Shown: positions 14,701-64,000 of the stretch, piece after piece | Numbering within the stretch: the stretch's first letter is position 1 | Layout: every line of letters starts with the position of its first letter | Virus record (IMG/VR): IMGVR_UViG_3300028805_000116 | DNA length: 64,000 nucleotides | Source of the DNA: a virus | Direction: 5' to 3' (one strand) | Position numbers and translations under genes: made by a program | Notes under the pieces: model-generated | The model's database searches: none | Told to the model about the DNA's origin: nothing | What the model saw: only the letters and a program-made list of their open reading frames with translations

Positions 14701-17700
14701 CCCAAGAATTTTGTCTGATTGAAATGAGCTTATTATTACTATAGCTAGTAAAGAATTAAGCCCACAACAAAAGGCTGTTCTTTCGGAATATATTTCAAAA
14801 TTTAAAGAAGACTTTAGGGAATGAACTAGATGACAGATTACAGTAGAGGCCCAACGGACAGACAATAAGGGGATGTACCCTGGCGAGACTATTAATGTAG
14901 GCTTAAATACCAACATTAACGATATTGATAAAGTATTAAAAGAAAAAATAAATTCTCAAATTAGTGAGCATATTCCTGATGAACAAGTTTTAAAAAATAG
15001 AGCTAAACAAAAGGAGACTTATTGAGAAGGAATATCATTAATAAGGCTATGAGAAAAACAACCATCATTTATGAGACGTTTAGATGATTATGTTTCTCAG
15101 CAAGATGTAGCAGCAACTGATGCTATGAAGGCGCAGATGTTTACAAAAGATAGAACTGTTCAAGAAATAGCTGATGCTTATTGAGTATCTGTTGAGTTTG
15201 TAAAATGAACTAATATGATTGCTTGAGTTGAGGCTTATTGAGCGTATTGAGATGGTATTATCTATTTCACAGATATGGTTAAGGAGAGTACAGCTCCACA
15301 CGAATTGTTCCACGCCATATTTGATATGCACGTAGGTAAAGAACAACACGATAAATTACTCAAACAATGAAGTAAACTCTTCAATGTTAGTGAAGACGAA
15401 ATGGAGGAAATAATGGCAGATAGTTTTGCTCATTGGTTTAATACTTGAGAGTTTATTTACTGAGACGAACTTATAAAGGCTGCTAAAAAGAAGAGACCTA
15501 ATAAAGCAGAAAAATCATTTATAAATAAGGTATTAGAAGTCTTTAAAGACTTAAAGAAATGGTTATGATTAATGGATGACCATAGGGCTGAAGTTAAACA
15601 GATGTTCGACGATATGGTAAATATGAAATATCTACCAGACGCTTGAAAAGCTGTTGAAGCTACGGAAGCTATGATTAAATATAATGATGACTTGGAGAAG
15701 GCTGCTATAAAATACTACTGACAATTACTTTGAGATTACCAAGAAGACTTATCTCCAGAATATATTGAAAGGATTCGCACGAAACTTTCAGAAAAAACTT
15801 GAATTGATTTTAAATCTTTTGACCAAATCCAAGATAAGGCTCTACTATGGCAAAAGGTTGATGAAGCTTTTGTTGTAGATAAATTAGTTTCAGGTAGATA
15901 TGATAAAGAGATTGTAGATGTAGACAATTTAATTAATTGAATAGAGAAACTTACAGATAAAGAGTTAGAGGATGTTATATTCAAAGATTTATGAGTTTTA
16001 AGTAAATGATGAAAGGTTGTAGGTAGAGATACTATTGATGCAATAAGAAACGCATATATAGATTATAAAACTGCCTGAAATGCCGTAGATAGTTTAATAG
16101 CTAAAGGTAAACTTACAGCTTATATACATTGAACTGAGGCGCAGAATGTATCTATGGAAGATATAAGGGCAATATTCCAGAATTGAACATTCGCTCAAAA
16201 ATATAAAGAAATGTTCTTCCCTAATCAAAAACTTACAGCAAAAGAAGAACAAGAGATAATAAAACAAATCAATGATAATATATTTGATACTTTATCAATT
16301 CAGTTTGCTGAAAATTTAGTATCAGCTTGATATGAATTGCCTTTGATAAATATCAAAACATTTATGTATGACTATTTAAATTGAAAGTTAGACTTAAATA
16401 ACAAGTTTGTTGAAGCATTTCTTTATAAAAATAATATTCCATTTTCATCCGATTGATTAAGATGAATTGTAGATAGTTTAATGCCATCAGAATTAAACTT
16501 CAACTATAATTTCTCAAATTATTCATATTGACTTGGGCAAAGGCCTCACGTCTGAGAAAAGGCTGTGTTCAAGGAAGTTGATAATAGGTTTGTTATGGAC
16601 AGTTATTCAGCTTTAGCCTGAATAGAATTAGCTGCTAAGTGATGAATTCCTGAAAATGAGGAAAGGAAAATATTAGAAGAAATCCTTACTAAATATGTAA
16701 ACGAGGTAATTAAATGAGTCAAAGATTGAACGTTAGATTTCAAATGAGCTCAAGAATTAAAACAAGAAGTATGATATGCTTTAGATATGTTTGAACAGGA
16801 TATATTATTGCCTAAATATGGTATATTCTTATCTCCTCAAGAAAAGCAATGACTTATAGGAATGAAATATGACTTGCCTATTTGAGTAAAATGACAAAAC
16901 ATAACTAATGTGACTAAGCAGCTAAACGACATAAAACAGAAGCTCTTAAATAAATATGATAATACGCTATGAAGTATAGTAGAAAATAATGATATTAATG
17001 AAGCAATTCTTAAATGAATTAAAAGTGAAGATGAAAGAATACAAAAGAAAATAGATGCTAGAAGAGATATGTTAGCTGAGAGGTGATGAGTTATCAGAGA
17101 GGTTAATTGACAATATTTGGTATATAATGCTAAACAGGCATTAGAATATGCTTTAGAAGATTTGCCTCCAAGTATTAATTGATTAGAATGACTTAGAGTG
17201 CTATGAAAAGAATGAATTGATAAATTATCTAATCAACAGGCATATGCTTTACTTAGATATATAGAAGCTGCTAAAAGCCTAGATGCCACAGCTTGATATG
17301 CTATAGAGCTTATGTATAAACAAAACCCTATGCTACTTCAATATAATTTCTTTGAAGCATATAGAGTATGAGACCAATGAATTCCTAAAGCATTAGAATG
17401 AAATTCATTAAATTTTGACAAACTATTATCTAGATTAGAAAATACAGCTAAGCTTGATGAAACATCTAAGAAGAATATATTTGAATGAGTTATTAATAAG
17501 TTTAGAAAACAATGATATGTTACTAATGATGACTTAGATGATATTATTGATAAGTGAATAAAAGAAGCATACGCAACATATAAACAGTCGCATATGTCTC
17601 CTAAAGAGATAAAGAAAGCCGTAAATAAAATGAAGAATATTTACAAGAAAGCTTTCGCTCCTTACACTTATTTAAGAGATATTCCTTCTTGAGGAACTGT

Positions 17701-20700
17701 AGATTGAGTAGAATTCAGGAATATAAAATCTAAAGTAAGGGAGGCTATGAAACAGCAATACAATCAAGCTATGGAAGATTTAAAGTCGGTATGAATTACA
17801 AATACGGATTGAATTCAAGATACTATATATCTCACCCTTCCAACTTGACAGAAGATGTCTCTTAGAGATGCTTCTACATTAGATGTTGATAGTTGGAAAA
17901 AATGAATATTTAATGATGAAAGTGTTTATGTAGCTTGAGCTGATGAATTATGAGCTGCTTGAAAGAAGACTGTAGAAGAGCAAAAGGAGTTCAGGAAAAC
18001 TATGGTTAACGAATATGACTCGACATTACAGACTATACTGAACCAATCTCAGTTTATTAGCGAATCAGAAAGAGCATTACAAGGTTCTATTATGAGTGAC
18101 GTAAGGGCTATGTTAAGACAATGAAATCTTACAAACTTAATAGTAGATGCTTTAGATGCCGTAAGTTGACTTAATGAAGAGGCTGCTAGATGAATAAAGG
18201 ATTATCTTATCTGATGGAAGTGAAACGTTTCATTCTGAAAATGGAAGTCTTCTCAGATTATAGAGAGAAATGAATTAGTAAAGAAAGCATACGCACAATA
18301 TTATGCTATGGATTTGTCTAAACTTAATAAGGTAACTCCTTGAACAAAAGCAGAAGACTTAGCTTTAAGATTAGCAAGATACTTTAAAAATTTGGAAAGA
18401 TTATTAGGTAGTGCAGATTGAGTAACTTGATGTACTACAAGTAATCAATTAAATAGAGCGTTCTTCCATATAGGTGAAGTTGTTATGAATGTGGATAGTG
18501 TAAAGTGAATTTTCTGATTATTATCTGCGGTAGAACAAAACCAGATATTAAAGTTGTTTAAGTTTGCTAAGTGAGATTTAAGAAAACAAGCTGAGGTATT
18601 TATTCGTAAAGGTAAAGGTAATTTTACTGAGAGCCTTTGATGATATAGAGACTACGCAGAAGATATTAGTTGAATTACTAGAGATGAGTTCAATGAGATT
18701 TTCTGAACATCATTTAACGAGGACGATTTTAAGAAAATACTTCAATGACTTACAGGTTTCTCATTGGTATGATGAGTTACTAAACCTGTTATGAAAGCAT
18801 TGAATTTCTTGAGCTGAACTAATTTCATATTTAGAGCTGCAATGTCTTACCCTTGACAGCTACTTACAATTCCTTTACAAAGCACAGCATATTTCTTAAA
18901 ACAGATATGATTTGAAAGAGCTTTGGATATTGATAGCTTATCTGATATTGACGAAGTTAGAGTTCATTATTGAATTTTGGATTGAGCATATAACGAAATT
19001 AATTGGTTTAATAAAAAATATAGGGTTAGTCCAGATGATGTTAGAGTAGATAGTTACTATAATAGGTACTGAATCCCTGATGTAGAATGAATTTATAAAA
19101 CTACATCCATAGAGAGCAGTGATGATTACATAAATATGTATGCTAAAATTAATAATCAAACTGCATCAAGTATCAGTTCTACAAATAAATGGATAAGACA
19201 ACTAGACCCATATAAAGATAATGCAAATAACATTATAGACTGATTATTCGCTAGAAACTTTAAAAACATAGCGTTCCAAAAAGCTATAAGACAGAATGAC
19301 TTTATGCAATTTTCTTCAGCAAAAGAGTTCTTAGCCTTTATGGAAGACCCTACGGTATGAGGTTCTGTAAAGCAAAAACTATTAGATAGAGTTGCTGCTT
19401 ATTCAGGTAGAAACTTTAGAAATATCCTTTGATTAGGATTCTGATGAATTGATAGAGCTGTATGATGAAGTGGATTTGGAAACATAATGTACTGACTTAT
19501 GCAGATGTTTAACTTTAGATGAAGTTGGTGACAGAATATATTTAAACAAGCTTGAGCTGCTATTAAGACTTGACTAAAGATAGTGAAAGCAAATCCTTGG
19601 TTAAGTAGAGAATGAAGAGATGCCGTTGGTAGATATATAGCTACACAGCCAGAATTTATGAATTTTGTCTGAGCTTTATTTAATGACTTAAAACGAAGTT
19701 GGAGGTTACAAAGATTCCAAGATAATTGAAGATGGCCAGATAACGAAGATATGTATGTGACTACAGAGTTCTGAGATGTATTTGACGCATATTCAGCTTT
19801 AGATTTTATAGATTACTTAACAGAATCTTTAAGTCTTACTTCACAATTATTCCAGTGAATACAATCATTCTGACCTGCTAGACCAATATTAGAATGAGTA
19901 GAAAGCGCATATAAATCATATATGGACCCTACAATTTATAAAGATACATTCTGAATTTGAGCTTTCTTTAATGCTTTATGAAAGAACTTCTGAAGACAAT
20001 GGAAACCACATAACTGGATTGCTAAAGCATTATGAGCCTTAACTACAGATTGACCTGAGGCATTCTGGACATATGTACAAAATGAATGGTATAAATTATC
20101 ATTTGGTTCTGTAAGGTATATGGTTAATGAAGATAGTAATTCTTATGGATATACTTTCGAAATGACTTGACAACAATGATGAATTCCGTCTATTATAATG
20201 TGAGAATGAAAACAAGGTTCTGATAAAAATTTCTCTTATGAAATAGATAATACAGAGACTTGGGAGACTATAAAACAATTATTTAGTAGCTGAAACTCTT
20301 GGGACGATAGACTTACATATGCCTGAAATCTTTGAAAAGCATTTGTTAACTGAAGTCAGTTCTTTAGTTTATGGAAGAATGCTTGAAAGGCTTGGAATAG
20401 GAATGCTCCAAGTTATTATACAGCAGATGATTTAGCAGATGTTTTACAAAATACTGAAGCTTGATTAGAGTTTTACCAGAAATGAATTGTAACTCCTAAA
20501 ACAAAAGAAGAAGCTGAGATATTCTTTGATACAATATTAGAAAATTCTAAGTTCCGTCCTTGAAGTAGTAATTTTACTAAATCATTAATCAATTATGAGG
20601 ATTATTGACATATGAATGGTAAAGAGAAATGAAATGAAGCTGATGCTGAAATGGAACTTTGGCTAGACCATATGAAACACGTAACTGATGACCATTGAGT

Positions 20701-21952
20701 TATAAGAAAAAATTGAAGCGAGGAGACGGTTGACCCATCTTGGAATAAATTAATTAATGCTGTTAGAAGTTGAGCTTACAATGGAACTTATACAACAAAC
20801 TTGATTTATAACTATGCTAAGACTTGGTTAGACAACCATTCGTCTGACCCTAACTATCAGCTTTATCTTAAACTCTTATGACAATGACAAGCTCATAAAT
20901 TAATTGAGTCTACACAAGACGATATTATAAAAGCTTGGAATGCTGGTAAGAAATGAGTTGATAATAAATGGACGGAGACTGAGTTCAAAAACGCCTGATT
21001 AAGGAGAGATATGTTATTATCTATGTGAAACACTCCTTTACCTTGAGATACTGAAACATTCTTTGATAAACTACAAGTTCTAGATGAGGATAATGCCACA
21101 GTTGCAGCATTACAAATCATTCAGAACCAAGCAAAAGAATGAGATAGAAAAATTATTGATAAGTTCTTTAATGTAAAAGAGAATGATGATTGAACAAAGT
21201 CTGTTACATTAAGAAGACAATATGAAAGTACATTAACTCAGATTTGAGCTGTTGCTAAAGCTATTGATGAATGAAATCTTGAGAGGGCAATATCTGAATC
21301 TTCTATTCTTACAAATATGTATAAGAACCAAGACCCATCAGGAGCTGTAACTGCTACATTGATTGATAGTGTTGTTAATAGAATATACGATACAGATAGT
21401 TTTTCTCCTGAGCAAAAGCAAGAAGCTATTATAGCATTATTCCATCATAATAAAGAATTCATACAAAAGAATCCAGAAAAGCTAAGAGAATTATTATGAG
21501 ATGAATATGATACTTATGCTAATTATATGAATCAGATGCTTTATCAATGGGATTGAGCATTATTGTCTACATTAGAAAGTATGCAGACTAGCTGAAAAGG
21601 TTCATCTTGAACTGCTAAGAAAACTAAAGCTACTTCTAGTGAATTGAAGAAATTAGCCGCCTCTCTAGGTAATGAATGATGAGCTAGAGGAACTTGAACT
21701 GTATGAAGCACAAAATCTTGGGTACCTGTTATTATTAAGTGAGCAGACTTAGTAAAGGAGTTATGAGTAAAATGATATACTCCTAATAAGGTATCATTGT
21801 CTATAAATGCTTATAAGCCTAAGATAGATTTAAGTATAGCTAAAGATATTAACAGAAAAGTTAAATGACCTAAGACACAACAGATATCAAACAAAAAACA
21901 ATTAAGTAAACTTGAAGATAAGGTTACAAAAGCTACTGAAGCAGAAAGTTAG
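11744..21952 (+). CDS. Giant protein, ~3402 aa, polyvalent-protein-like. HExxH zincin-like motif PHELFHAIFDMH at about 15296-15330. H-Y-E-class ADP-ribosyltransferase-like motif VYHGT...GPGMYFSTS near 13850-13950.
   Basis: Single frame from ATG 11744 to TAG 21950-21952. Same frame mod 3 as track ORF 21317-21499 which lies inside it. No TAA/TAG over 10.2 kb, >150 in-frame TGA. Confidence 0.6.
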
Positions 21953-34804: not shown

Positions 34805-37800
34805 ATGGCAAAAGCACGTCAACAGTATTTTGCAGATGAAGTAACTTTACAGAAAGAGAACAGGGATTTCGCTATACAACCTGAACTCGTTGAGAAACTA
34901 GAAAGTATAGAAGCTTGAGCTCAAGTTAATGTAATCGAAACAGTTAAAGTGAACTGAGAGGCATTAACTCCAGATGAGAATAAAGCTGTTGATGTGAGTG
35001 TCCCTTTAGTAGAGGACACTCTTTATTCAACAGACCCAGATAAGGCTCTATCTGCAAATCAATGAAAAGTATTATATGAATATATACAAAATTTAGCCTC
35101 AAGAGGTAGATATCTTTCTAACTGGAATACAGTTACTTGATTGCCTACTACTAATCCAGTTGATAATCCATATCAATATCGTGCTTGAGACTATTATGTA
35201 GTAAGTAATGTAGCTGCCGAAGGCGGTACTAACTATAGACCTAATGGTAGTACTTATTCTTGGGGAGTAGCTTCAACTACAGTAGAAACTGAAACTGTAA
35301 AAGTTTGAGATTATTATACATATGATTGACAGCATTGGCTTTTACTTGTAAATACGGCTAGAGAAATTGCTATAGATAGTAGTTTATCTACAACAAGTAC
35401 AAACCCTGTAGAGAATAAAGTAATTACAAATGCTCTAAATACTAAACAGAATAATATCACAGATTTAGAAACTATACGTAGTTGAGCTGCTTTATGAGCA
35501 ACAGCATTACAACCCTGAGCTAGTCTATCAGAATTATCTTGAACTTCTGATAACATAACTCAATGAACTACAAATCTATTTATGACTACAGCTGAGAGAA
35601 GCAAATTATCTAATCAAAGCTGAGTTAATACTTGAGATGAAACTCAAACAACAATAAAAAATAAATTATGACAAGCGTCTGCTTCAACAGATGGTTATCT
35701 TACTTCAACAGATTGGAATACGTTTAATAATAAACAATGAGCCATTTCCGATTTAGAAACAATTAGAAGTAATGCCTCTGCTTGAAAGAATGCAAGTGAT
35801 ACAATAGCAACTTATGGAGATGTAGTTACACACGATGCTGATGAATTTGCCACAGCTTCACAATGAGCTAAGGCAGATACAGCATTACAAAATGGAGACA
35901 ATGTATCAGAGCTAGTTAATGATGCTTGATATATAACAGATGCTTATCACGACGATACAAAACAAGACAAATTAATAGCTTGAGCTAATATTCAAATTGC
36001 TGCAGATTGAAAAACAATTTCTTCTACAGATACAACATATGTAGCTTGAGACTTTGACATAAAAGACCTAGCTGATAGTACTTGACTTAGAACAGAATGG
36101 AGCTGAAAGCAAGATGAATTAATAGCTTGAGCTAATATCCAAATCGCCGCAGACTGAAAGACTATTAGTGCTACAGATACTAAATATACAGCTTGACCTG
36201 GTATTAGTATTTCAAATAATAATGTTATTTCTAATACACAGACAAGTGCTGAATGGTGAAACATCCAAGGAACACTAAGTAATCAAACAGACTTACAATT
36301 AGCTTTAGATGATAAACAAGATACTCTTACAGCTTGAGCCAATATACAAATAGCCCAAGACGGGACAATCTCTGCTACAGATACTAAATATACAGCCTGA
36401 ACTTGAATTTCAATTGATGCTAATAATGTAATAAGCAACACACAAACATCAGCTGAATGGTGAAACATAACTTGAACTCTTTCAGACCAAACAGACTTGC
36501 AAACTGCTTTGGATGCTAAGCAAGATGATTTAATTGCTTGAGCTAATATCCAAATCGCAGCAGATTGAAAAACAATCTCTGCAACAGATACTCAATATGT
36601 CGCTTCAGACTTTGATATTAAAGACTTAGCAGACTCTACAGGAAAGAGAGCTTCTTGGGATGCTAAACAGAATGCTATTTCAGACTTAGCTACGATTAGA
36701 AGTAATGCATCTACAGCTATTCAACCTAATGATAATGTTAGTGAATTAACAAATGATGCTGGTTACATTACAAGTGCAGATATTCCTACATTAGATACAG
36801 CTATGTCTGATAGTTCTACAAATGGAGTGCAGAATAAAGTAATTAAATCCTATGTAGATACTCAAGTACAAGAAGCTACAAGTGGTGCGGTGAGCGATAC
36901 AGCATATTGAACAAGTTGGAATTGAATTACAGGTATAGCTCCTTCTAAGAATGCTGTCTATGATAAGATTTCTGCTATGGATACAACTATAGCTTGAAAG
37001 CAAGCCACGATTAGTGATTTATCCACTATTAGAGCAGGAGCTTGAAAATGAGCTACAGCTGTACAGCCTTGAGACAATGTATCAACCCTTACAAATGATG
37101 CAGGCTTTATCACTAAAGCTGTAAGCGACTTAACAAATTATTATACTAAGAATGAAACATATACAAAATCTGAAGTAGCTGATTATGTAGCAAACTTTGC
37201 TTGATTTAAAGTAGTTGCACAGTTACCTACTACAGATATTAAAACAACAATAATTTATTTGCTTTGACCTGTTGGAACTTGAGCAGATAAATATGAAGAA
37301 TATATTTACTCAAATAATGCTTGGGTAAAGATATGAGAGACTTCTGTGGATTTAACAAATTACTTTAATACATCTACAGATAACTCAGATAGTATTACTC
37401 AAGGTTCTACTAATCTATTTCTAACAAGCGCAGAAAGAACTAAGCTTTCTAATACAAGTGGAACTAACACAGGAGATGAAACTAAAACAACTATCCAATC
37501 TAAGTTAGGTGCTGCGACTTCTAGTAATGATTGATATTTAAGTAGTGCTGATTGGTCGAAGTTTAATAGTAAGGCTGACACAACAATTATAAATGACACG
37601 GCTTATGCTTCTAGTTGGAATGCAGATACAACTCACGCCCCTACAAAGAATGCTGTGTATGATAAGCTGAATGCTATGGATACGACTATATCAGGTAAAG
37701 CTGATGCTACAGATGTAAATGTAAAATATTTTAAATTGTCCTCTACATCTGATACAACTCACGCACAGGAAGCTGTAGATTGGTTTTTAGCTTGAAAAAT

Positions 37801-39538
37801 TCCTGTTCTTCAAGTTGGAGATAATGATTTCTATTATTTAGATAGAAACGTTCCATTAGAATCAATTAATAATCCAACATTAACATTTTCAAATCAAAAT
37901 TATGAAAGCTATCAATATGTAATAATAGATGTATCTAATTGAACAGTAGATAGTATACGTACAGCAATTCAATCATTTGTGGCAACATCCTGAAATCAAA
38001 CAGTTAATTGACAAAAAACATTTGGGACTTCACCAATAGTTCCTTCTAAAACTTCTGATGCCACTAATACTTGAACAGCAATAGCAACAGAAGCACAGGT
38101 ATATAAGAAACAAGATAAACTAGCTACACAAACAGCTTATACATCTAAGGGTACTGCTAGCAAAGTACCTCAGATTACAACAAATAGTCTGTGACAGGTA
38201 ACTTGAATTACTGAGGTTGATATATCCTATCCTAGTCAAGTCTCAGATGTGGCTTATGCTTCTAGCTGGAACTGAGTTACAGGAACAGCTCCTTCAAAGA
38301 ATGCTGTCTACGATAAAATCTCTGCTATGGATACAACCATAGCTTGAAAACAAAATACTCTTTCAACACAAACTGCATATACTTCTAAATGAACTTCTAC
38401 TAAAGTCCCTCAGATAACAACTAACACTTTATGACAAGTAACTTGAATTACAGAAGTTGATATACAAGCTTGAGAAACTTACAACGCTTGAGAATGAATA
38501 GAAATCTGAAATGACTACTCAGCTATGCAATGACCTGCACCAGATGGTTTTCACGTGCCACTTAATACAGAATGGCAAGCTGTTTATGATGTATGGACAG
38601 CTTTAGGTGGATGAAGTTCAGACTGAACTAATTTCTGAATAGCATTAAAGTTGCCTTTCGCTGGTTACCGTGACGCCTCGTCTGCTGGTGTTTACAGTCA
38701 GGGTACCGACGGGAACTATTGGTCTTCTTCTCGTAGCGATGCGAATCGTGCCTACTACCTGTACTTATATTCGAATGCTCCTGACCCCCAGAGTTTCGAC
38801 TACCGTGCGTACGGTTTCTCTGTACGTTGTTTCAAGAACTCCCCAACTGTACCTACATCTTCTTGGACAAAACTATATTGAACAAGTATAGAAAGTTGAT
38901 GAATATTCTGGAGTAGTACAGATTGACTTATATCATTATCAAGCGACTGACAGACTTGGATAACAATAGCTGATAAGAACTTATGAGCCACAACTGTATG
39001 GAACAGCTGAGACACATTAAGTGAAGCTAATTGTGGTAAATATTTTCAACGATGAAATAATTATGGTTTCCCACGGACTTGAAGTGTAACAACTTCTTGA
39101 ACTCAAGTAGATGCTAGTAGTTATTGACCTTGAAATTATTACTCAAGTGATACATTCATAAAATATAATTGAAGATGGGACACAACAGATAATTGAAATC
39201 TTTGGTGATGAGTAACGTGAGTAGTAAGTAACGCTATCACAAACACAGGAGTACTTAGTGTGAATGGAGAGACTGGAGCAGTAAATCTGACTATACCAAC
39301 GATTAGTACAATAACAGTAACTCTGACTGCTGCTTGATGGTCTTCTAATGAGCAAACTGTTTCTGCTATAGGAGTTACTGCAAGCAACACAGTTATAGTT
39401 TCTCCTGCACCAAGTGATATAGCTGATTATGCTGACTGTGGTGTTTATTGTTCTGCTCAAGGTAGTGGAACTTTAACATTTGGATGTGATACAGCACCAG
39501 ATGGAGATATAGTAGTGAATGTACTAATAATGAGTTAA
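34805..39538 (+). CDS. Large tail fibre / receptor-binding protein, ~1577 aa. Many internal repeats (ANIQIAADGKTISATDTKYTAG..., SWNADTTHAPTKNAVYDK...). C-terminal FISUMP-like domain (GYRDASSAGVYSQGTDGNYWSSS...GFSVRCFKN).
   Basis: ATG 34805. Same frame as track ORF 38651-38881. TAA 39536-39538. Confidence 0.6.
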
Positions 39539-39550
39539 AAAAGTCTGATT

Positions 39551-39621
39551 TCTCCTATCGTTTAAGTCTAGGAACGCTACCAGAAAGGGTAGAAATGAGG
39601 GGTAAGAACTCTCTAGGAGAA
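39551..39621 (+). ncRNA. tRNA-like cloverleaf element, copy 1. 7-bp acceptor tctccta/taggaga, D-arm, anticodon-arm ctacc/ggtag with 6-nt loop, T-arm gaggg/ctctc. Flanked by direct repeats agtctgattt.
   Basis: Manual folding. Homologous to the copy at 41644-41714 with compensatory base changes in two stems. Confidence 0.4.
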
Positions 39622-39657
39622 AAGACTAGTCTGATTTATTTCTTATGTTTAATAATT

Positions 39658-40347
39658 ATGGCTATATTTAATACAGTTTATGGAGGTACAGGATGAGGAT
39701 GGAAACCTAGTGCATCTGTAACTGCACGATACAAATTTGCATTAGATACGAAAGATTATTCTTGAAATAATAGGAATGCAACAGAGCAAACAAGTACACT
39801 TTCTTATGCGATGGATGGTAACTTAGTCTATGCAGTATTTAATAACACTATGCTTTCTGCGAGTAATTGATTAAGTAGTGCTAACTATACAGCATCTGCT
39901 TGGATAAAATCTAGTGAGGTAAAGACTTGATATGTGCTAATTACTTGATGAAGTAACCACAATATGCAACCGTTATTAGTTGGTATATCTAGCGAAACAA
40001 ATAACAAATATATCTTCAAATCTCAATATTGGATATGAAGCCCTAGTTATTGTCCACCTATTTGAACTGCACCAGATGAATTAGTAATACCGCTTAATCA
40101 ACGAAAGCTAATTACATCAGTAAGAAAAGATGGGGTTTGTTATCTTTATGTAAATTGAAGTTTATGATATTCAGGTTCTATCACAACAGAATTAAGAACA
40201 GAAGAATGGCATATATGAAACCAATGGTCTAACTCTACACTTAATTTTAATGGTTGAGTATCAAACTTAATAATAGACCAATCTCCACGAACAGCAGATG
40301 AAATCCTAGCATATTATAACCAAACGAAATCTAACTACTGACTTTAA
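39658..40347 (+). CDS. LamG/ConA-like jelly-roll protein, 229 aa. Tail fibre/receptor-binding accessory candidate. Ends ...AYYNQTKSNYGL.
   Basis: ATG 39658 to TAA 40345-40347. Confidence 0.45.
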
Positions 40348-40377
40348 TCAGACTTTTTAAATTCTTTAAAGACAGCG

Positions 40378-41634
40378 ATGCCAATAATAAATATGGTATA
40401 TAAGAAGAAAAAGGGATGGAAACCTTGAGCTAATACACTTTTATATTTACCATTAAATTCAACTGATACATATACAGATAAGAGTTGAAATAATATATCT
40501 ACTACAAATAGCAATGTAACATTTGGAGATTATTATTGAGTTGAGTGCGGAATTTTTAATTGAAGTAATACTCATATACAAGTTACTCCATTTGCTATAC
40601 CAGATACAGTAACATTATTATGCCGAACTCGTTGACCATCAATATCATCATCTTACGATGCTAAGATATTTGATGCTAGAAGTAACCCAACTATAACTAC
40701 TTGAAAAATACCAACAACACGAAGTGACTGAAAAAATGCTTATTTTGCTTGGTTGAATAATTGAGGAATAAATACTGTACAAGGAATTAATGACCAATGG
40801 TTTTTGTTCGCTGTTACTATATGATGATGAACTGTAGATATATATGCTATATGAGATAATCTTAATATACATTTATCAGATAGTTGAACTATAAATGCGT
40901 GAACTCCATCACAGATAAATATCGGAAATGAATATAATAATGGTGCTAGTAGATATTATAGTTGATGAATAAGCGAGCTTATATTAGAAAATAAAAAATG
41001 GACAGCAGATGAAGTAACAGCATATTATAACCAAACAAAATCAAACTACTGACGGCCTAAAAGGTTACCATCAGCTTATCAAGAAGTAGAGTATATACAG
41101 AGTAGCTGAACTCAATATTTTAGTGTGTTAAATTCATTCAAGACAAGCTATAAAACTGTAATAGATTTCCAAATGGTAACCACTTGATGAGATTATATCC
41201 CATTATGAATGCTTAAGGCTGATGCTAGTTATAAATATTGAATAAATGCTTATAGCTGATATTTCAAAGTAATAAGTTGAAGGTCTTGGGCAAATACTAA
41301 ATCAGAAGATAAAAATAGACATACTTTTATAATTGATAAAAGTACAGTAACAGTAGACTGAACAAATTATAGTATTAATTATGTAGATGTTACATTTGAT
41401 TTTTGAATTTGAGTATTTGCATATCATAGTAATGGGGGCACACTATGGCAATTTCTTTCAAGTAATAAATTATACAAACTAGATATATATGATGAGGGTG
41501 GAACACAGATTTTTAATGGAGTGCCTTGTTATAGAAAAAGCGATAGTGTAATATGAATGTACGATGTAATAAATAAAGTATTTTATACAAATGAATGAAC
41601 TTGAACATTTACTAAATGACCAGATGTAAACTAA
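40378..41634 (+). CDS. Paralogous LamG-like protein, ~418 aa. Contains an internal ...AYYNQTKSNYGRPK junction.
   Basis: ATG 40378 to TAA 41632-41634. Shares a sequence block with the preceding gene. Confidence 0.45.
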
Positions 41635-41643
41635 TCAGATTTA

Positions 41644-41714
41644 TCTCCCATCGTTTAAGTCTAGGAACACCATCAGTAAGGATGGAAATGAAAGGTAAGG
41701 TCTTTCTGGGAGAT
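41644..41714 (+). ncRNA. tRNA-like cloverleaf element, copy 2. Acceptor tctccca/tgggaga, anticodon-arm ccatc/gatgg, T-arm gaaag/ctttc. Flanked by direct repeats aatcagattta.
   Basis: See 39551-39621. Covariation preserves the pairing. Confidence 0.4.
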
Positions 41715-41921
41715 TTAATCAGATTTATTTCTTTTCTTTAACCAATGACCGTAACTCTTACTTTTACCCTCTTTATAGTTCTGTGTATCCTAGTGGGGTA
41801 TGAGATATTTAGAAAATAATAAAAAGCTGAATGACTAAACTATTTGAGAGAAAAGCAACGCTACTAGATACAAGTCGAACTATATATTAACTCAGCCTTT
41901 TACCCCTTCCTTTAACCTAAT

Positions 41922-53596: not shown

Positions 53597-54166
53597 TCAT
53601 CTAGGCAAACTAAAATCAACTGCTAGAGCGTCTGTTCATCTAACTCTAGGCTTAGGCTTTGGAGTGGGGGCTTGGGTCCCCAAGTACTCGGGCTCCGAAA
53701 TTTTGGCTGGCATTTCGGGTTTCGCTACTAAATTAACCTTTTTCTCAGCCATAGTCTTTTTATAGGTTTCTATCTCCTTATCCAAGGAGTCATTTTCATT
53801 TTTAATTCTTTCTAGAGTTTCTCTCTTAGCTTTATTCGATTCAAGGTATTCCTTTATTAAGGTCTTACTTTCTTTAGCAATAACCTTAAAAGGCTCGTCT
53901 AATGACGAGATTGTCTGTGTATATAAATCCATAACTACTGTTGCTAATTGGAACTTGTCCAATCCTACTTTGTGAGTTTCTAGATATTCCTCACATACTT
54001 CAATTAGCTTTGCATTTATATCGTCAAGCATAGCGTCAGCATCTGCTTTATTATGCTTAACAATCACTTCCAATCATACCTTCTCTAAAGAGAACTCTAG
54101 TATTCATTGGTACACAGTTATAAATTGGCTCAACACTTTGCGTGTTGCTTTAGCTGTTGTCTGCAT
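53597..54166 (-). CDS. Hypothetical protein, ~189 aa. Pro/Lys-rich C-terminus.
   Basis: ATG 54164-54166 (minus) upstream of the track ORF. TAA 53594-53596. Confidence 0.4.
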
Positions 54167-54710
54167 CGTCTAAATCATTTTCCGTTATAAATCTTCTTAT
54201 TTTTAAAGCTATCGTTTCCACAATGCTTTTTACATTATAATATGAAGTTTTCATTATCCTAGCAATCTCATACTTTCATCTACCCTGCCCAAGGTATTGA
54301 AGTATTTGACTTTCTAGTGGGGTAATAATGTTATTTGCTACTAGAACATAGTCTAGTATATCAATATCCATATCATAACTTCGGTGTTCACTATCTCTAA
54401 TATCATCAATAGTATAACTCTCAAGTCAATACTGATTAATCTTATTGTAGAGATAACCACCTCATCTATTAAATAGATACCATAACTTAGAGATTTTCTT
54501 CTCTTCAGGTAAGTCCTCTCTAAGTATGATATTATCAGCTAAGAGAAATGCCTCTGAAAGAATATCTTCTTTTGTGTAAGTGTTATTCTTTATTCTTAAT
54601 AATGGGTTCTTTCTCATCAAAAGAGACATATTGTCGTAGAGAAATATTCTCCCATCATCTATATTTTTAGAATATTCACTTAGCACACGTTCGTAAATAT
54701 TCTTTGGCAT
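54153..54710 (-). CDS. ECF-like sigma factor / LuxR-type HTH regulator, ~185 aa. Region-2-like EDILSEAFLLADNIIL...KLWYLFNR. Region-4-like HTH TPLESQILQYLGQGRGKYEIARIMKTSYYNVKSIVETIALKI.
   Basis: Track ORF 54462-54710 extended through TGA to TAA 54150-54152. Confidence 0.5.
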
Positions 54711-60876: not shown

Positions 60877-61656
60877 TTGCATCATCATTATAAATGAACT
60901 ATCTTCTCAGGCCATAGTTACAGGTAATTTACCATCCCATCTTTCAATCCATTTTAATTTTACATATTCAGCACCTCATTGGTTTTGAATAGCTTTAGCT
61001 TGGATTTCAATAGCCTTAGCTTGCGCCTCAGCTGCGACAACCTTTTGGTCAGCTTCATACTTTACTTTCTCTAGCTTATTCTTTTCGGCAAGAGCATTCT
61101 GTTCAGCGGTAACCTTAGCCTCAATTGCATCGTTGAATGATTTACTAAAGTTAAAGTTTACAATATTGAATAACTGAATTTGGACTCCGTATGGTTCAAG
61201 CCTTTTGTTCAATGTTTCTTCAATGTTTTTAGATACATCACTTCTTTCAGTAATCAATTGCTCTGCTGAATATTTAGCGACTACTGCTTTAAATACTTCT
61301 TGAATAGCAGGAGTAATAATCTTTTCAGCTACTTTTTCTTCTTTACCTACATTCTTGTATAGGTTTACTACTTCGCTTTCCTTGTACTTGTAGTTCACTA
61401 CTATTGTGGCACCTACACTCTGCAAGTCTTTTGAACTAGCATCAGCTGTAGCATCTAATTTTTGCGTCTGTACATTATATTTTACAGACTTAGTAATGAA
61501 TGGAGTTTTAAAATGTAATCCATCCGTGTAAACAGTACTGTTAACTTTTCCTAGTGTAACAGTAAATCAGTTGTATCCAGGTTCAACTACAAACCAAGAG
61601 TTAAAACCACAGATTACTAACAAGAGTATGACAATACTCCAAACAAATTTTTTCAT
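60877..61656 (-). CDS. SPFH/band-7 (prohibitin/stomatin-like) membrane protein, ~259 aa. N-terminal TM helix MKKFVWSIVILLLVICGF. SPFH core includes ...ITPAIQEVFKAVVAKYSAEQLITERSDV...AEAQAKAIEIQAKA...
   Basis: Track ORF 60976-61425 extended upstream to ATG 61654-61656 and downstream through TGA to TAA 60874-60876. No TAA/TAG in frame. Confidence 0.5.
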
Positions 61657-62246
61657 AATGTATATTGGTAAAAATATAAAAACTAATATTTAGGATGAGG
61701 CAATTTCCTTATCCAGCTTTTAAGCCAATCGCTTATCCATTCACTAAATTCCATATCTGAAGCAAGGTCAATCACAACAAATAAAAAGAGTAATCAAACA
61801 ATTATAAGTCCTATCATAGGTCCAGTTCAACAGTCTTCACACATAGTAATATAATTAAGAAATAAAATTATTCTTTATCTAATTTTTTATGTAGCCATTC
61901 TTTAGCTCTATCCTGTATGATTTCTGATAATTCCCCACCAAAAAGTCACAAATCAACTATTATAAATATCACAGAGAGAAATCCTCCAATAAGGATTATT
62001 GCTACTACAGTAAGAAAAGTTCAAAGTATTAGTCACATAGTAATATAATTAAGAAATAAAATTAATTTTCTTTTGGCTTACGTTCATCTAACCAATGCTT
62101 AGTCCAAGCCTTTAGATAATCTGAAAGGGCTCAACCTAATAACATATCATCTACAACTCCTGCTAATAATAATGTTAGGAGTAGTATTATAGGTAGCATA
62201 AATATAACGAATATCATTTGTATATAATAATAATATAAAAGTCTGA

Positions 62247-62519
62247 TTACTCTCACTCTTTAATTTCTTTCCTCATTTGATTTTTAACTTCATCATACCA
62301 TTTAGAATAATTCCATTCTTTATATAGTGCCATTTGATTAGAAGTTGGCGATAGTAAATAAATCTCTGCTAATCTTAACATAAGTTTATCTTTCAGCTTT
62401 TTATTTTCTTCTTCTAGCATATCTATATACTTATTCATCTTGTCCAAAAACTTTTTATCTTTTTCATCTTCACAGATAAATGAATATCTTGTTTTAGTCC
62501 AATTACTTTCTACTTTCAT
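62247..62519 (-). CDS. Small hypothetical protein, 90 aa
   Basis: Track ORF 62253-62519 extended by two codons through TGA to TAA 62247-62249. Confidence 0.4.
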
Positions 62520-62549
62520 TTTTAAAAGTAAATAATATAAAAGTCTGAT

Positions 62550-62742
62550 TTAGTCTGCATTTAGAATTACAACATCTTTTAATGCACCTCAATTTTCCAT
62601 ATCATTTACTCGGTTCTCTTCTACACTTTCTAATGTGGTAGCCTCATACTCACTCTTAAAACTACCATTTTCTCGGTATATCCATACCTCTTTATCTTGT
62701 GGCATTTTCTGTAATTTTTCTATAAGTTCTTTTACTGTCATT
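62550..62742 (-). pseudogene. Small gene MTVKELIEKLQKMP|QDKEVWIYRENGSF... disrupted by a 1-nt frameshift near 62697-62703
   Basis: The N-terminal 16 codons are in one frame and end at TAA 62692-62694. The rest continues seamlessly in the -1 frame to TAA 62550-62552. Confidence 0.35.
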
Positions 62743-64000
62743 TCCTTTAGGTAAATAATATAAAAGTCTGATTTAGTCTAAAGCTGAAATTACGTTTATA
62801 AGTAAACATACAAAAGCAAACAACAACACTAATGGAACTCATACAATAGGGCATATAACACACAATGCTGTCATAGCAAAGGCTGCCACAAATATACAAA
62901 TAGTAATTAAAAGTCAGATTATTATTTTCATTTCCATAGGTAAATAATATAAAAGTCTGATTATAATGTAATAATATCTCCATCAACAAGGAACACATCA
63001 AATACATTATCTACTTTAATATGTTCGACTTTACTATCCCATCTCCTGATGTCTGGAATTGCCATATTCCAAATCTCTCCTAATTCATATTCAAACGAAA
63101 ATCATAATTCTGATTTCTTTTCTTTCCATCCCCACCATTTCTTGTAGTATGGTTTCCAATATTCTCAACCAGTGACTATATGGTTTTTGAATTTTTTTAA
63201 TCTTCGTTTCATACTTTAATATTACTAAGTAAAAAATCCTCTAACTTATCTTCATCACATAAGGCACTTTCTATCAAGTAGTATTGGTATTCATTTTCTA
63301 ATATACATCTATCTCAATTGGTTTTCCCATCTCGTTGCCAAATATGTTCTTCATATCAAGGTCTTTTTGGTCGCATTCCATTCTCACACACGAATTGCCA
63401 TAGTCAGCTTTCTTTCGCAACCAATGCTCTAATAGATTTTTCATAAAAAGTTAATCAGAATATAGTTCTTTTAGAAAAACTAATATATTTAGTTGTATAA
63501 TAAGCATTTCTTAAATGTGGTATTCATCGTGGTTTCCACCCTCTTTGGATAAGTCTATTCAATAGTTGTTCTAATTCGTCTACCATAGGTTATAAACTAA
63601 GTAAATAAATAACAGTTTCTCCTGCCGCTACACTAATAAACATCCCACCTAATACAAACCACCAAGTGAATAAATCATATTTGCATTGTATATGCCAACA
63701 TATAAAAAATACAATCATTGAGACAGATACTCAAGTTATAAATATTTCTCTTGTCATAGGTTATTAAATTAAGTAAATAAATCTGACTACTCTCTATAAT
63801 CATCATAAACCTCTAATGTCCATTGTCATTTTATATCTTTACCAATTATAATTTCATAATCTTTTTCCTCTACAAGTTTTAATAATTCTTCAAGAGTATT
63901 TATCTCTATATCTTTATATTTTCAAAAGTTATGTGTATAATGTAATTTGAATTTCATTCTGATTTTTATTTAAGATATGAAATAAGGTCTTCAATAGGTG

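What the first reader, a model, noticed from the sequence alone, without database searches (positions are those of the whole stretch)
62229..62965. Repeated intergenic motif TAAATAATATAAAAGTCTGATT(T) upstream of minus-strand early genes, sharing its GTCTGATT core with the repeats flanking the tRNA-like elements
Copies lie at about 62229-62250, 62525-62552, 62752-62775 and 62938-62962. A gtcagatt variant is at 62912 and another variant at 63775. On the coding (minus) strand this reads AAATCAGACTTTTATATTATTTAC just upstream of start codons. The same AGTCTGATTT / AATCAGATTTA word brackets both tRNA-like elements at 39543, 39627, 41633 and 41717. It is a candidate early-promoter/operator or RNA-processing signal.
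Basis: seen in the sequence. Interest (0 to 1): 0.55.

Follow-up and report, generated by a model that had tools for sequence, protein, structure and literature searches.

The report
Conserved gene-cassette junction in CPR-type phages
The repeated 24-base motif is real and is the boundary of exchangeable small-gene cassettes in a family of uncultivated phages that read TGA as glycine. It joins the upstream gene's stop codon, a family-specific TCAGA word and the phage's unusual gene-start leader, and its biochemical role (promoter, RNA-processing site or recombination site) has not been tested.

Summary
Four copies of TAATCAGACTTTTATATTATTTAC lie on the minus strand at 62226-62963 (0.01 expected by chance). 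Each starts with the stop codon of the upstream gene and ends 8-9 nt before the next ATG.

The exact 23-mer occurs in 46 IMG/VR phage loci. Its core, TAATCAGAYTT, is about 90-fold enriched there and sits at gene junctions: 61% of sites meet both ORF criteria, against 3% of control sites.

The motif has two parts:
- **AT-rich half.** This is the strongest version of a family-wide "TTTA box" found 23 nt before most start codons. It is also present when embedded in upstream coding sequence, and there is no Shine-Dalgarno sequence. It is therefore probably a per-cistron translation leader, not a promoter.
- **TAA+TCAGAY half.** This part is junction-specific.

Sequence similarity between phages breaks exactly at the motif, so cassettes are shuffled there. 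Copy number ranges from 0 to 11 per locus among the loci examined, with 0 or 1 in some relatives that share the band-7 gene. The same word also flanks tail-fibre genes and two 70-nt tRNA-shaped RNA cassettes in the late module, so it is not early-specific.

No sigma-70-type architecture and no phage RNA polymerase was found. The closest analogue is the PeSL cassette of T4-like phages. The biochemical role of TCAGAY remains inferred.

The parts
62940..62963 (-). Junction copy 1, exact TAATCAGACTTTTATATTATTTAC. Its TAA is the stop of ORF 62961-63212. The inferred next start is the second ATG, 32 nt from the T.
62751..62774 (-). Junction copy 2, AAATCAGACTTTTATATTATTTAC. The TAA at 62773-62775 is the stop of ORF 62773-62937. 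The ATG of ORF 62550-62741 follows.
62528..62551 (-). Junction copy 3, AAATCAGACTTTTATATTATTTAC. The TAA at 62550-62552 is the stop of ORF 62550-62741. The ATG of ORF 62247-62519 follows.
62226..62249 (-). Junction copy 4, TAATCAGACTTTTATATTATTATT (variant 3' end). Its TAA is the stop of ORF 62247-62519. The ATG of ORF 62062-62217 follows.
62909..62923 (-). Inverted partner word, AATAATCTGACTTTT. TCTGA lies 45 nt downstream of the T of copy 1, inside ORF 62773-62937.
63755..63789 (-). Second junction class, TAGTCAGATTTATTTACTTAATTTAATAACCTATG, in front of ORF 63590-63757. In many related loci the same class carries a canonical TAATCAGAT.
63584..63612 (-). A leader of the same class without the TCAGA word (TTATTTATTTACTTAGTTTATAACCTATG), in front of ORF 63197-63586.
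62034..62064 (-). TCAGA-less 31-nt repeat, TAATTTTATTTCTTAATTATATTACTATGTG. It has a near-consensus TTTA box and lies in front of small membrane ORF 61868-62038.
61840..61870 (-). Second copy of the TCAGA-less 31-nt repeat, in front of the paralogous ORF 61683-61844.
62062..62937 (-). The four small ORFan cassettes delimited by the junctions: 62773-62937, 62550-62741, 62247-62519 and 62062-217. They encode 51-90 aa when TGA is read as Gly.
40345..40380 (+). Sense-strand junction in the late module, TAATCAGACTTTTTAAATTCTTTAAAGACAGCGATG. It holds the stop of ORF 39659-40347 and the start of tail-fibre-region ORF 40378-41634.
41632..41644 (+). Junction word TAATCAGATTTAT. It holds the stop of ORF 40378-41634 and is the left direct repeat of cloverleaf el2.
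41716..41747 (+). Right direct repeat of el2 plus a leader running to the ATG of a 24-codon hydrophobic ORF (TAATCAGATTTATTTCTTTTCTTTAACCAATG). L047 and L048 have this junction without el2.
41644..41713 (+). el2, a 70-nt tRNA-shaped cloverleaf RNA cassette.
39551..39620 (+). el1, a 70-nt tRNA-shaped cloverleaf RNA cassette. It is also present in L047 and L048.
39542..39551 (+). Left repeat of el1, AGTCTGATTT. This is the reverse complement of AAATCAGACT, or equivalently a 2-mismatch sense variant.
39628..39637 (+). Right repeat of el1, AGTCTGATTT, followed by the leader ATTTCTTATG...ATG of ORF 39659-40347.

Best explanation
The motif is the conserved junction between exchangeable gene cassettes in a family of phages that read TGA as glycine (code 25). 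Their host is probably a Gracilibacteria/Absconditabacteria-type bacterium.

**Three functional pieces, read on the coding strand**
1. TAA, which terminates the upstream gene.
2. The word TCAGAY, found only at such junctions.
3. An AT-rich leader, CTTTTATATTATTTAC. This is the strongest form of a family-wide 'TTTA box' (TTTATwTyTTAA) that sits 23 nt before most start codons in place of a Shine-Dalgarno sequence.

**How it probably works**
- The junction gives any cassette placed behind it a ready-made start region, and gives any gene placed in front of it a stop.
- The many near-identical copies (24-35 bp, or 55-65 bp where a Lys-rich leader ending in the inverted word TCTGA is included) act as homology patches. 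Phage recombination uses these to insert, delete and swap cassettes: small ORFans, tail-fibre genes and tRNA-like RNAs.

**Shown**: placement, conservation, cassette boundaries, mosaic breakpoints, and variation in copy number.

**Inferred**
- The TTTA box acts in translation initiation.
- TCAGAY marks a transcript boundary, either a promoter/operator element for autonomous cassette expression (favoured) or a cleavage site.
For: **Placement**
- The TAA of TAATCAGAYTT closes an ORF of at least 30 codons at 74% of 174 sites (17% of control TAAs).
- An ORF starts 18-45 nt downstream at 76% of sites (control 11%). Both conditions hold at 61% against 3%.
- T-to-ATG distances cluster at 26 and at 29-33 nt.

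**Conservation**
- The exact 23-mer occurs in 46 IMG/VR loci.
- TAATCAGAYTT occurs 203 times against 2.2 expected. The median spacing is 405 nt.

**Mosaicism**
- 15 locus pairs share the downstream gene but have unrelated upstream sequence. Identity falls from 1.0 to 0.3 exactly at the 5' edge of the motif. 5 pairs show the reverse pattern.
- 37 pairs share the leader up to TCTGA and are unrelated after it.

**Cassette content**
- 161 distinct proteins follow the junctions. They fall in 84 clusters, with a median length of 83 aa. None of the nine window junction-region ORFs tested has a functional PHROG match.

**Insertion and copy-number polymorphism**
- el2 plus one copy of TAATCAGATTTAT is absent from the same junction in L047 and L048.
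- Copy number is 0 in L051 and L052, 1 in L050, 6 in L053 and 8 in the window.

**TTTA box**
- 339 of 540 ORFs of at least 100 codons have TTTA at -27..-20. The peak is 90 at -23 against about 6 per position in the background.
- It is present in 64% of genes that abut or overlap the upstream ORF, against 8% of random ATGs.
- No SD is visible, and there is no conservation upstream of the box in ordinary genes.
Against: - There are no transcript or protein data, so the promoter, leader and recombination roles are all inferred from sequence.
- The loci were retrieved by exact match to the motif. This inflates its apparent invariance. About half of the secondary copies are exact.
- Terminator-like hairpins directly upstream, which a PeSL-like unit would be expected to have, occur in only about 10-15% of units. 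They are not enriched over control genes.
- The right-hand boundary at an inverted TCAGA word is not predicted by simple homologous recombination. It hints at a sequence-specific process.
- Homology arms of 10-13 bp, as at el1 and el2, are short for general recombination.
- Gene starts were called by simple ORF rules.
Confidence: 0.55

Rival explanations
1. The whole 24-mer is a promoter. It would be recognised either by host RNA polymerase, with TATATT/TATTAT as the -10 box and TAATCAGAC as a substitute for the -35 or an operator, or by a phage-specific polymerase or sigma factor. Each small gene would then be its own early transcription unit.
For: - The block is contiguous, invariant and 24-25 bp long, like promoters of single-subunit phage polymerases. 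From memory, its first 10 bases resemble the T7 consensus TAATACGACT.
- TAnnnT hexamers sit at fixed positions.
- In about 10-15% of units a GC-rich hairpin plus a T-run immediately precedes AATCAGA. The downstream gene would then need a new start of transcription.
- A weak LuxR/sigma-region-4-like HTH protein is encoded at 54150-54710.
- The virion polyvalent protein carries an ADP-ribosyltransferase domain. By analogy with T4 Alt, it could modify host polymerase.
Against: - The sigma-70 scan gives 21 sites against 17 +/- 5 in shuffles. The '-35' hexamers it pairs with the motif lie in unconserved sequence.
- No RNA polymerase was detected in the window or in loci ORFs of at least 300 aa.
- The AT-rich half occurs before most genes, including operon-internal ones.
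- Copies occur in the late module. Some relatives that share the band-7 gene lack the motif in the orthologous early region.
- At el1 and el2 the word is followed directly by the RNA element, with no AT-rich part.
Confidence: 0.3
2. UAAUCAGAYUU is an RNA-level signal: an endonuclease cleavage or stability site. It would cut polycistronic transcripts into cassette-sized mRNAs and release the cloverleaf RNAs. The downstream UCUGA would pair with the new 5' end and protect it.
For: - The word is strand-specific and lies exactly at stop codons.
- It occurs as direct repeats on both sides of the two structured RNAs, with no leader between the word and the RNA.
- The inverted partner TCTGA lies 45-59 nt downstream in 24% of units against 3.6% expected. 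It occurs in all three reading frames (27:10:2), so it is a nucleotide-level signal.
- Upstream hairpins could be protective 3' ends.
- The word occurs in both early and late modules.
Against: - The predicted stems are weak, at -4 to -9 kcal/mol. The mean z-score is -1.4 even though the set was selected for having the partner.
- There is no covariation. The C/T after TCAGA is not matched by G/A before TCTGA.
- 76% of units have no partner.
- No candidate nuclease was identified.
Confidence: 0.2
3. TCAGAYTTTT is the recognition or terminal sequence of a sequence-specific DNA process, such as a recombinase, a transposase-like enzyme or a nicking/homing enzyme. The roughly 60-bp segment TCAGAY...RTCTGA would be a miniature inverted-repeat module that is mobilised as a unit.
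For: - Both edges of the shared module coincide with the same 10-nt word in inverted orientation: TCAGAYTTTT on the left and AAAARTCTGA on the right.
- el2 is an insertion flanked by a 13-bp duplication of the word.
- Copy number varies widely between the loci examined.
- The word is absent from 185,579 representative bacterial genomes apart from one chance coding hit.
Against: - No recombinase or transposase was found next to the arrays.
- The commonest neighbouring protein family has no Pfam match, and only a low-confidence structure model could be made.
- The distance between the inverted words varies, and most units lack the right-hand word.
- Duplication of the junction is equally expected from circle integration by homologous recombination, as described for PeSLs (PMC2839356).
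Confidence: 0.15
4. TCAGAY has no function of its own. It is a hitch-hiking piece of one ancestral intergenic region, spread and homogenised by recombination together with the useful leader.
For: - Relatives do without it.
- TCAGA-less leaders of the same classes exist at 63584-63612 and in the 31-nt repeat at 61840 and 62034.
Against: - The word is kept with several quite different downstream leader classes.
- It occurs in inverted orientation at the other module edge.
- It is retained next to RNA cassettes that have no leader.
- It is about 90-fold enriched.
Confidence: 0.1

Closest known systems
PeSL (promoter-early stem-loop) cassettes of T4-like phages (Arbiol et al. 2010, PMC2839356; Comeau et al. 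2014, PMC4122927)
   Same: Both are short conserved intergenic motifs repeated many times in hyperplastic regions. They flank small ORFans in the direction of transcription. They coincide with insertion, deletion and replacement breakpoints between related phages. They leave a duplicated motif on both sides of an inserted cassette.
   Different: A PeSL is defined by a full sigma-70 consensus promoter (-35, -10 and an AT-rich UP region) plus a stable G/C-rich stem-loop terminator. Here there is no conserved -35, and only a minority of units have a hairpin. The motif starts with the upstream stop codon, and half of it is a genome-wide start-proximal element. Some copies carry an inverted word at a second boundary inside the coding region. 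There is no sequence homology to PeSLs.
Phage 'morons' (autonomous promoter-gene-terminator insertions between conserved genes)
   Same: Small accessory genes are inserted between conserved genes, and their presence varies among relatives.
   Different: Morons are not bounded by one shared, exactly conserved junction sequence. Promoter and terminator function has not been shown here.
Promoters of single-subunit phage RNA polymerases (T7/T3/SP6 class, about 23 bp conserved)
   Same: Both are contiguous invariant blocks of about 24 bp repeated in one orientation. The first ten bases, TAATCAGACT, resemble T7's TAATACGACT (recalled from memory, not tested).
   Different: No such polymerase gene was found. 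The motif lies before consecutive tiny genes and in the late module. Its 3' half is shared with nearly all genes.
Non-SD translational enhancers such as the T7 gene 10 'epsilon' element (UUAACUUUA; recalled from memory)
   Same: Both are U-rich ACUUUA-like elements about 20-25 nt upstream of the start codon that act per cistron.
   Different: Epsilon works together with an SD sequence. Here no SD is visible. The element is found at more than half of genes at a sharply fixed distance. Any mechanism, including pairing with rRNA, is untested.
Small bacterial inverted-repeat elements that carry expression signals (for example Neisseria Correia elements; recalled from memory)
   Same: Both are short modules with inverted ends inserted in intergenic DNA. 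They can bring promoters or processing sites with them and are flanked by a target duplication.
   Different: The module here is much smaller (about 60 bp). It spans a start codon and is fused in frame to ORFs. Most copies lack the right-hand end, and no transposition has been shown.

Membership tests
PeSL (T4-like phages) | Contains a sigma-70 consensus early promoter (-35, 16-18 bp spacer, -10, AT-rich upstream region) | tested here: not met
   The consensus scan of 61500-64000 gave 21 sites against 17 +/- 5 in shuffles. The motif supplies only a TATTAT -10-like hexamer, and the paired '-35' hexamers lie in unconserved upstream coding sequence. There is no information content upstream of the motif.
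PeSL (T4-like phages) | Adjacent stable stem-loop acting as a terminator | tested here: inconclusive
   About 10-15% of units have a GC-rich hairpin plus TTTAG/TTTAT directly upstream. Upstream folding energy overall does not differ from control genes (Mann-Whitney p = 0.67). None of the four window copies has one (one search found 0 terminator-like sites).
PeSL (T4-like phages) | Concentrated in hyperplastic regions, flanking small ORFans | tested here: met
   The median spacing is 405 nt. Downstream proteins have a median of 83 aa and fall in 84 clusters for 161 sequences. The nine window junction-region ORFs tested have no functional PHROG match.
PeSL (T4-like phages) | Insertion, deletion and replacement breakpoints between related phages coincide with the motif | tested here: met
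   Identity profiles break at the motif edges. el2 shows a filled versus empty site. Cassette number differs between the window, L050, L051 and L053.
PeSL (T4-like phages) | Recombination between flanking copies yields cassette mini-circles | not testable with these tools
   This needs inverse PCR or read-level data from phage DNA.
Single-subunit (T7-like) RNA polymerase promoter | A cognate phage-encoded single-subunit RNA polymerase | tested here: not met
   Pfam found no RNA_pol domain in the proteins tested. The 3402-aa protein has no PDB sequence match. No motif B or C signatures occur in any ORF of at least 300 aa in the loci, or in any called gene of the window. Coverage of the relatives' genomes is partial.
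Single-subunit (T7-like) RNA polymerase promoter | About 23 bp contiguous conserved block with a defined initiating purine | tested here: inconclusive
   The 24-nt block is conserved. However, retrieval was by exact match, and the start site cannot be mapped here.
Shine-Dalgarno ribosome-binding site | Purine-rich GGAGG-like element 5-10 nt upstream of the start codon | tested here: not met
   G is 5-15% at every position from -25 to -2 (19% at -1), and no SD is visible before window genes. GGAG/AGGA in some class-A copies sits 0-3 nt from the ATG.
tRNA (for elements el1 and el2 that share the flanking word) | Cloverleaf with four helices of tRNA dimensions | tested here: met
   Helices of 7/5/5/5 bp are 97.7% paired, with 4 compensatory changes between the two copies and none in slid controls.
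tRNA (for elements el1 and el2 that share the flanking word) | 7-nt anticodon loop, canonical T-loop and D-loop, detectable by tRNA models | tested here: not met
   ARAGORN found 0 genes in the window. Rfam gave no tRNA hit even at E <= 10. The loop is 6 nt (AGAAAG or AGUAAG), and the T-loop is GUAAGAA or GUAAGGU. Relatives do carry 'tRNA-???' genes with 2-base anticodons.

The most novel reading that the evidence does not exclude
The segment TCAGAYTTTT...ATG(Lys-rich)...AAAARTCTGA is a roughly 60-bp miniature mobile 'gene-start cassette' with inverted ends, moved by a sequence-specific enzyme that has not yet been identified. It would carry a stop codon, a non-SD translation leader, a start codon and a short N-terminal tag. 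It could be fused to ORFs in any reading frame because TGA is a sense codon in this system. If so, it would be a new kind of selfish regulatory element. It would drive gene-cassette, tail-fibre and tRNA-like RNA exchange in phages of code-25 CPR bacteria.
Probability: 0.15. Interest if true: 0.8.

Novelty: new variant of a known kind. Interest (0 to 1): 0.55.

Why it matters
Almost nothing is known about how genes are expressed or exchanged in Gracilibacteria/Absconditabacteria or their phages, and the library search found no description of promoters for this lineage.

This junction gives three concrete, testable handles:
- **A start signal.** The portable start region (TTTA box at -23, no Shine-Dalgarno sequence) may reveal how translation starts in these organisms. 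It would also improve gene calling in code-25 genomes.
- **A cassette marker.** The exact, family-wide sequence tag delimits accessory-gene, tail-fibre and small-RNA cassettes. It is useful for finding anti-defence or host-range cargo and for tracing recombination in rumen viromes.
- **A convergent system.** If TCAGAY turns out to be a promoter or recombination signal, it would be a PeSL-like modular-shuffling system that arose independently in an unrelated phage lineage.

Tried and rejected
- **Standard genetic code.** ORFs are fragmented under code 11. ORF coverage is 15 kb under code 11 against 77 kb with TGA as a sense codon.
- **TGA = Trp.** Rejected in favour of Gly. With TGA read as G the terminase reads GPRGGGKS, and tail-fibre repeats align TGA with G.
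- **Known RNA families.** Rfam gave no hit at gathering thresholds for the window or 15 loci, apart from one true tRNA. Nothing meaningful appeared at E <= 10 around el1 and el2.
- **Known phages.** Megablast of 56-64 kb against the phage collection found nothing.
- **Phage RNA polymerase.** Pfam, a PDB sequence search and motif regexes were all negative.
- **Virion RNA polymerase reading of the 3402-aa protein.** Pfam finds only an ART-PolyVal domain.
- **Host-genome origin of the motif.** One scan of 185,579 genomes gave a single chance coding hit in a Bacteroidales MAG.
- **More cloverleaf homologues.** Exact and gapped pattern scans found only L047 and L048.
- **Enrichment of upstream terminators.** Not found.
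- **Long-range RNA hairpin.** Weak energies and no covariation.
- **The commonest junction-adjacent protein family** (window 63197-63586; 325 homologues). It has no Pfam domain. AlphaFold gave pLDDT 59 and pTM 0.36, too poor for a fold search.
- **Literature.** A search for the motif string and for promoters of this lineage returned nothing.
Full report
**Context**

The window is a 32% GC phage genome segment in which TGA is a sense codon. ORFs of at least 100 codons cover 15 kb under the standard code and 77 kb when TGA is read through. TGA most likely encodes glycine. With TGA read as G the terminase reads GPRGGGKS, and tail-fibre repeat units align TGA with G (ADxKTIS/QDGTIS, TAxTxIS/TAxPGIS). 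That is genetic code 25, known from Gracilibacteria and Absconditabacteria (PMC10746230, PMC9297842).

A plus-strand structural block runs from about 4.5 to 50 kb. It includes a 3402-aa polyvalent protein with an ADP-ribosyltransferase domain. It is followed by a minus-strand block of mostly small genes from 50 to 64 kb. No tRNA and no Rfam family was detected in the window. No similar record exists in the phage collection.

**Checking the observation**

Four copies of the 24-mer lie on the minus strand at 62940-62963, 62751-62774, 62528-62551 and 62226-62249. This is 4 matches with up to 3 mismatches against 0.01 expected. On the coding strand each copy reads (T/A)AATCAGACTTTTATATTATTTAC.

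In every case a TAA at the 5' edge of the motif is the stop codon of the upstream ORF. It is the motif's own first triplet in copies 1 and 4 and lies one base upstream in copies 2 and 3. An ATG follows 32-33 nt after the first base of the motif.

The 'variant at 62912' is an inverted copy of the core (AATAATCTGACTTTT) inside the next ORF. The 'variant at 63775' is a second class of the same junction (TAGTCAGATTTATTTACTTAATTTAATAACCTATG).

**Relatives**

The exact 23-mer occurs in 46 stretches of IMG/VR viral contigs, often 2-4 times within about 1 kb. Sequence on both sides is otherwise diverse.

Within these loci the shorter word TAATCAGAYTT occurs 203 times against 2.2 expected. The median spacing is 405 nt. 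It is followed by several distinct AT-rich 'classes' of leader.

The word marks gene junctions:
- Its TAA closes an ORF of at least 30 codons at 74% of sites (control TAAs 17%).
- An ORF starts 18-45 nt downstream at 76% of sites (control 11%).
- Both conditions hold at 61% of sites against 3%.
- The T-to-ATG distance peaks at 26 nt and at 29-33 nt.

The 20-mer is absent from 185,579 representative bacterial and archaeal genomes, apart from one chance coding hit. The retrieval by exact match inflates the apparent invariance. About half of the additional copies in the loci are exact.

**The motif is composite**

No window gene has a Shine-Dalgarno sequence. Instead, 339 of 540 ORFs of at least 100 codons in the window and loci have TTTA starting between -27 and -20. 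The peak is 90 at -23 against about 6 per position in the background. The consensus is TTTATwTyTTAA, and nothing is conserved upstream of it.

This 'TTTA box' is present in 64% of genes whose start abuts or overlaps the upstream ORF, so it is often embedded in coding sequence. Only 8% of random ATGs have it. A per-cistron signal at a fixed distance from the start codon is most simply a translation-initiation element. That reading is an inference.

The CTTTTATATTATTTAC half of the finding is the strongest version of this box. In all four window copies the TTTA lies at -22 or -23 from the ATG taken as the start. Only TAA+TCAGAY is specific to the junctions. Ordinary genes lack it.

**Cassette exchange**

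Among 62 distinct class-A units, 15 pairs share the downstream gene but are unrelated upstream. Identity falls from 1.0 to 0.3 exactly at the 5' edge of the motif. Five pairs show the reverse, and only one pair is similar on both sides.

The proteins that follow the junctions are small and diverse. There are 161 sequences in 84 clusters, with a median of 83 aa. The nine junction-region ORFs of the window that were tested, plus the 54150-54710 protein, have no functional PHROG match.

Copy number varies widely. Loci that share the neighbouring band-7 gene at 75-93% protein identity have 0 junctions (L051, L052) or 1 (L050) in 13-21 kb. L053 has 6 and the window has 8. Compared with L050, the window carries extra junction-bounded cassettes on both sides of the shared MKVESNW gene.

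**A second boundary**

In 24% of units (3.6% expected) the inverted word TCTGA lies 45-59 nt downstream. It follows the ATG and a Lys-rich, A-rich stretch. It occurs in all three reading frames (27:10:2), so the signal is at the nucleotide level.

Thirty-seven pairs share this leader up to TCTGA and become unrelated within 5-10 nt after it. The shared module is therefore about 55-65 bp, bounded by TCAGAYTTTT and AAAARTCTGA. It is fused to different ORFs.

The RNA stems this could form are weak, at -4 to -9 kcal/mol with a mean z-score of -1.4. They show no covariation.

**Link to the tRNA-like elements**

el1 (39551-39620) and el2 (41644-41713) are 70-nt cloverleaves. They are 97.7% paired and have 4 compensatory changes in 22 pairs, with none in slid controls. 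They are not tRNAs by ARAGORN or Rfam, and they have 6-nt 'anticodon' loops.

el2 is bracketed by a 13-bp direct repeat, TAATCAGATTTAT. In L047 and L048 the same junction is uninterrupted. el2 plus one junction copy is therefore an insertion.

Relatives carry true tRNAs in equivalent slots. L011 has tRNA-Arg followed 3 nt later by AATCAGATTT. Relatives also carry a UCA-anticodon tRNA and 'tRNA-???' genes with 2-base anticodons.

The junction word also separates the tail-fibre-region genes at 40345 and 41632. The word is therefore a general cassette boundary, not an early-gene signal.

**Promoter test**

A sigma-70 consensus scan is not above shuffles, and the motif supplies only a -10-like TATTAT. 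No RNA polymerase was found. Terminator-like hairpins directly precede AATCAGA in about 10-15% of units, some with a conserved AGGTGG loop. They are not enriched over control genes.

A promoter within the junction remains possible, and I favour it for TCAGAY. It is not demonstrated. RNA processing, a site-specific DNA process and pure hitch-hiking remain live rivals.

**Comparison with known systems**

The best analogue is the PeSL cassette of T4-like phages. PeSLs are conserved promoter/terminator motifs that flank ORFans and mediate modular shuffling (PMC2839356, PMC4122927). The features compare as follows:
- The location and breakpoint criteria are met.
- The defining sigma-70 promoter is not met.
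- The stem-loop is present only in a minority of units.

This element works like a PeSL but is not a member of that family. The literature search found no description of this motif or of promoters in this lineage.

**Verdict**

The feature is real, strongly non-random and conserved across the phage family. Its evolutionary role as a cassette junction is well supported. Its biochemical mechanism is inferred. I rate it a new variant of a known kind, of moderate interest.

Noticed in passing
whole window; e.g. 6140-8293 (terminase) and 34805-39538 (tail fibre): TGA is a sense codon and most likely encodes glycine (code 25). With TGA read as G the terminase reads GPRGGGKS, and tail-fibre repeats align TGA with G. 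This points to a Gracilibacteria/Absconditabacteria-type host.
   Followed up: partly
upstream of most genes in the window and in loci L001-L053: There is no Shine-Dalgarno sequence. Instead a 'TTTA box' (TTTATwTyTTAA) sits at -23 from the ATG in about 50-75% of genes. This includes 64% of genes whose start abuts the upstream ORF, against 8% of random ATGs. It is probably a lineage-specific translation-initiation signal.
   Followed up: partly
39551-39620 and 41644-41713 (+): Two 70-nt cloverleaf RNAs have tRNA dimensions but a 6-nt 'anticodon' loop and a non-canonical T-loop. Four compensatory pair changes separate them. They match no Rfam family. el2 is an insertion that is absent from L047 and L048.
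   Followed up: partly
L053 527-599; L050 7958-8031 and 5328-5404: Relatives encode 'tRNA-???' genes with 2-base anticodons (6-nt loops) next to tRNA-Trp. L050 also has a tRNA with a UCA anticodon, which would read UGA. L050 carries a cluster of 8 tRNA genes.
   Followed up: no
loci L004, L005, L007, L010, L012, L024, L027, L028, L036 and others: Hairpins with covarying stems share a conserved loop, (G)AGGTGG(A). They are followed by TTTAG/TTTAT and then directly by AATCAGA. The loop resembles a Shine-Dalgarno sequence.
   Followed up: partly
e.g. L004 minus-strand offset 1285, L007 minus-strand offset 1211, L013 plus-strand offset 8368, L016 plus-strand offset 3534, L024 plus-strand offset 6784 (0-based offsets on the named strand): A second recurrent structured sequence occurs in at least 15 loci. 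It is an AGGTGG-loop hairpin followed by gcaggattcaatgaggg-loop-ccct...atctct. It has no Rfam match.
   Followed up: no
61840-61870 and 62034-62064 (-); ORFs 61683-61844, 61868-62038, 62062-62217: An exact 31-nt repeat, TAATTTTATTTCTTAATTATATTACTATGTG, precedes two small single-pass membrane proteins. These are two of three tandem genes that look paralogous by eye. The third gene has the TCAGA junction instead.
   Followed up: partly
11744-21952 (+): A 3402-aa polyvalent protein carries an ART-PolyVal ADP-ribosyltransferase domain and an HExxH motif. It has no detectable RNA polymerase and no PDB relative.
   Followed up: partly
54150-54710 (-): A 186-aa protein has a weak C-terminal LuxR/GerE-type HTH (E = 0.0016, below the Pfam cut-off). 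It may be a sigma-region-4-like regulator.
   Followed up: no
63197-63586 (-) and 325 homologues: This family (LEQLLNxLIxKGWKP...ESGLWQFVCEN...DEDKLEDFLLSNIK) is one of the two commonest gene families next to the junctions. It has no Pfam domain. The AlphaFold model was too poor to use (pLDDT 59).
   Followed up: partly
L053 (ENA ERZ27256871 k141_1027000, 110.6 kb contig): This is a close relative, with the neighbouring 129-aa protein 95% identical. It has six junction words within 2.3 kb, lying 2.3-4.6 kb from the contig end. Two of them are upstream of the region that corresponds to the end of the window, so the array probably continues beyond position 64000.
   Followed up: partly
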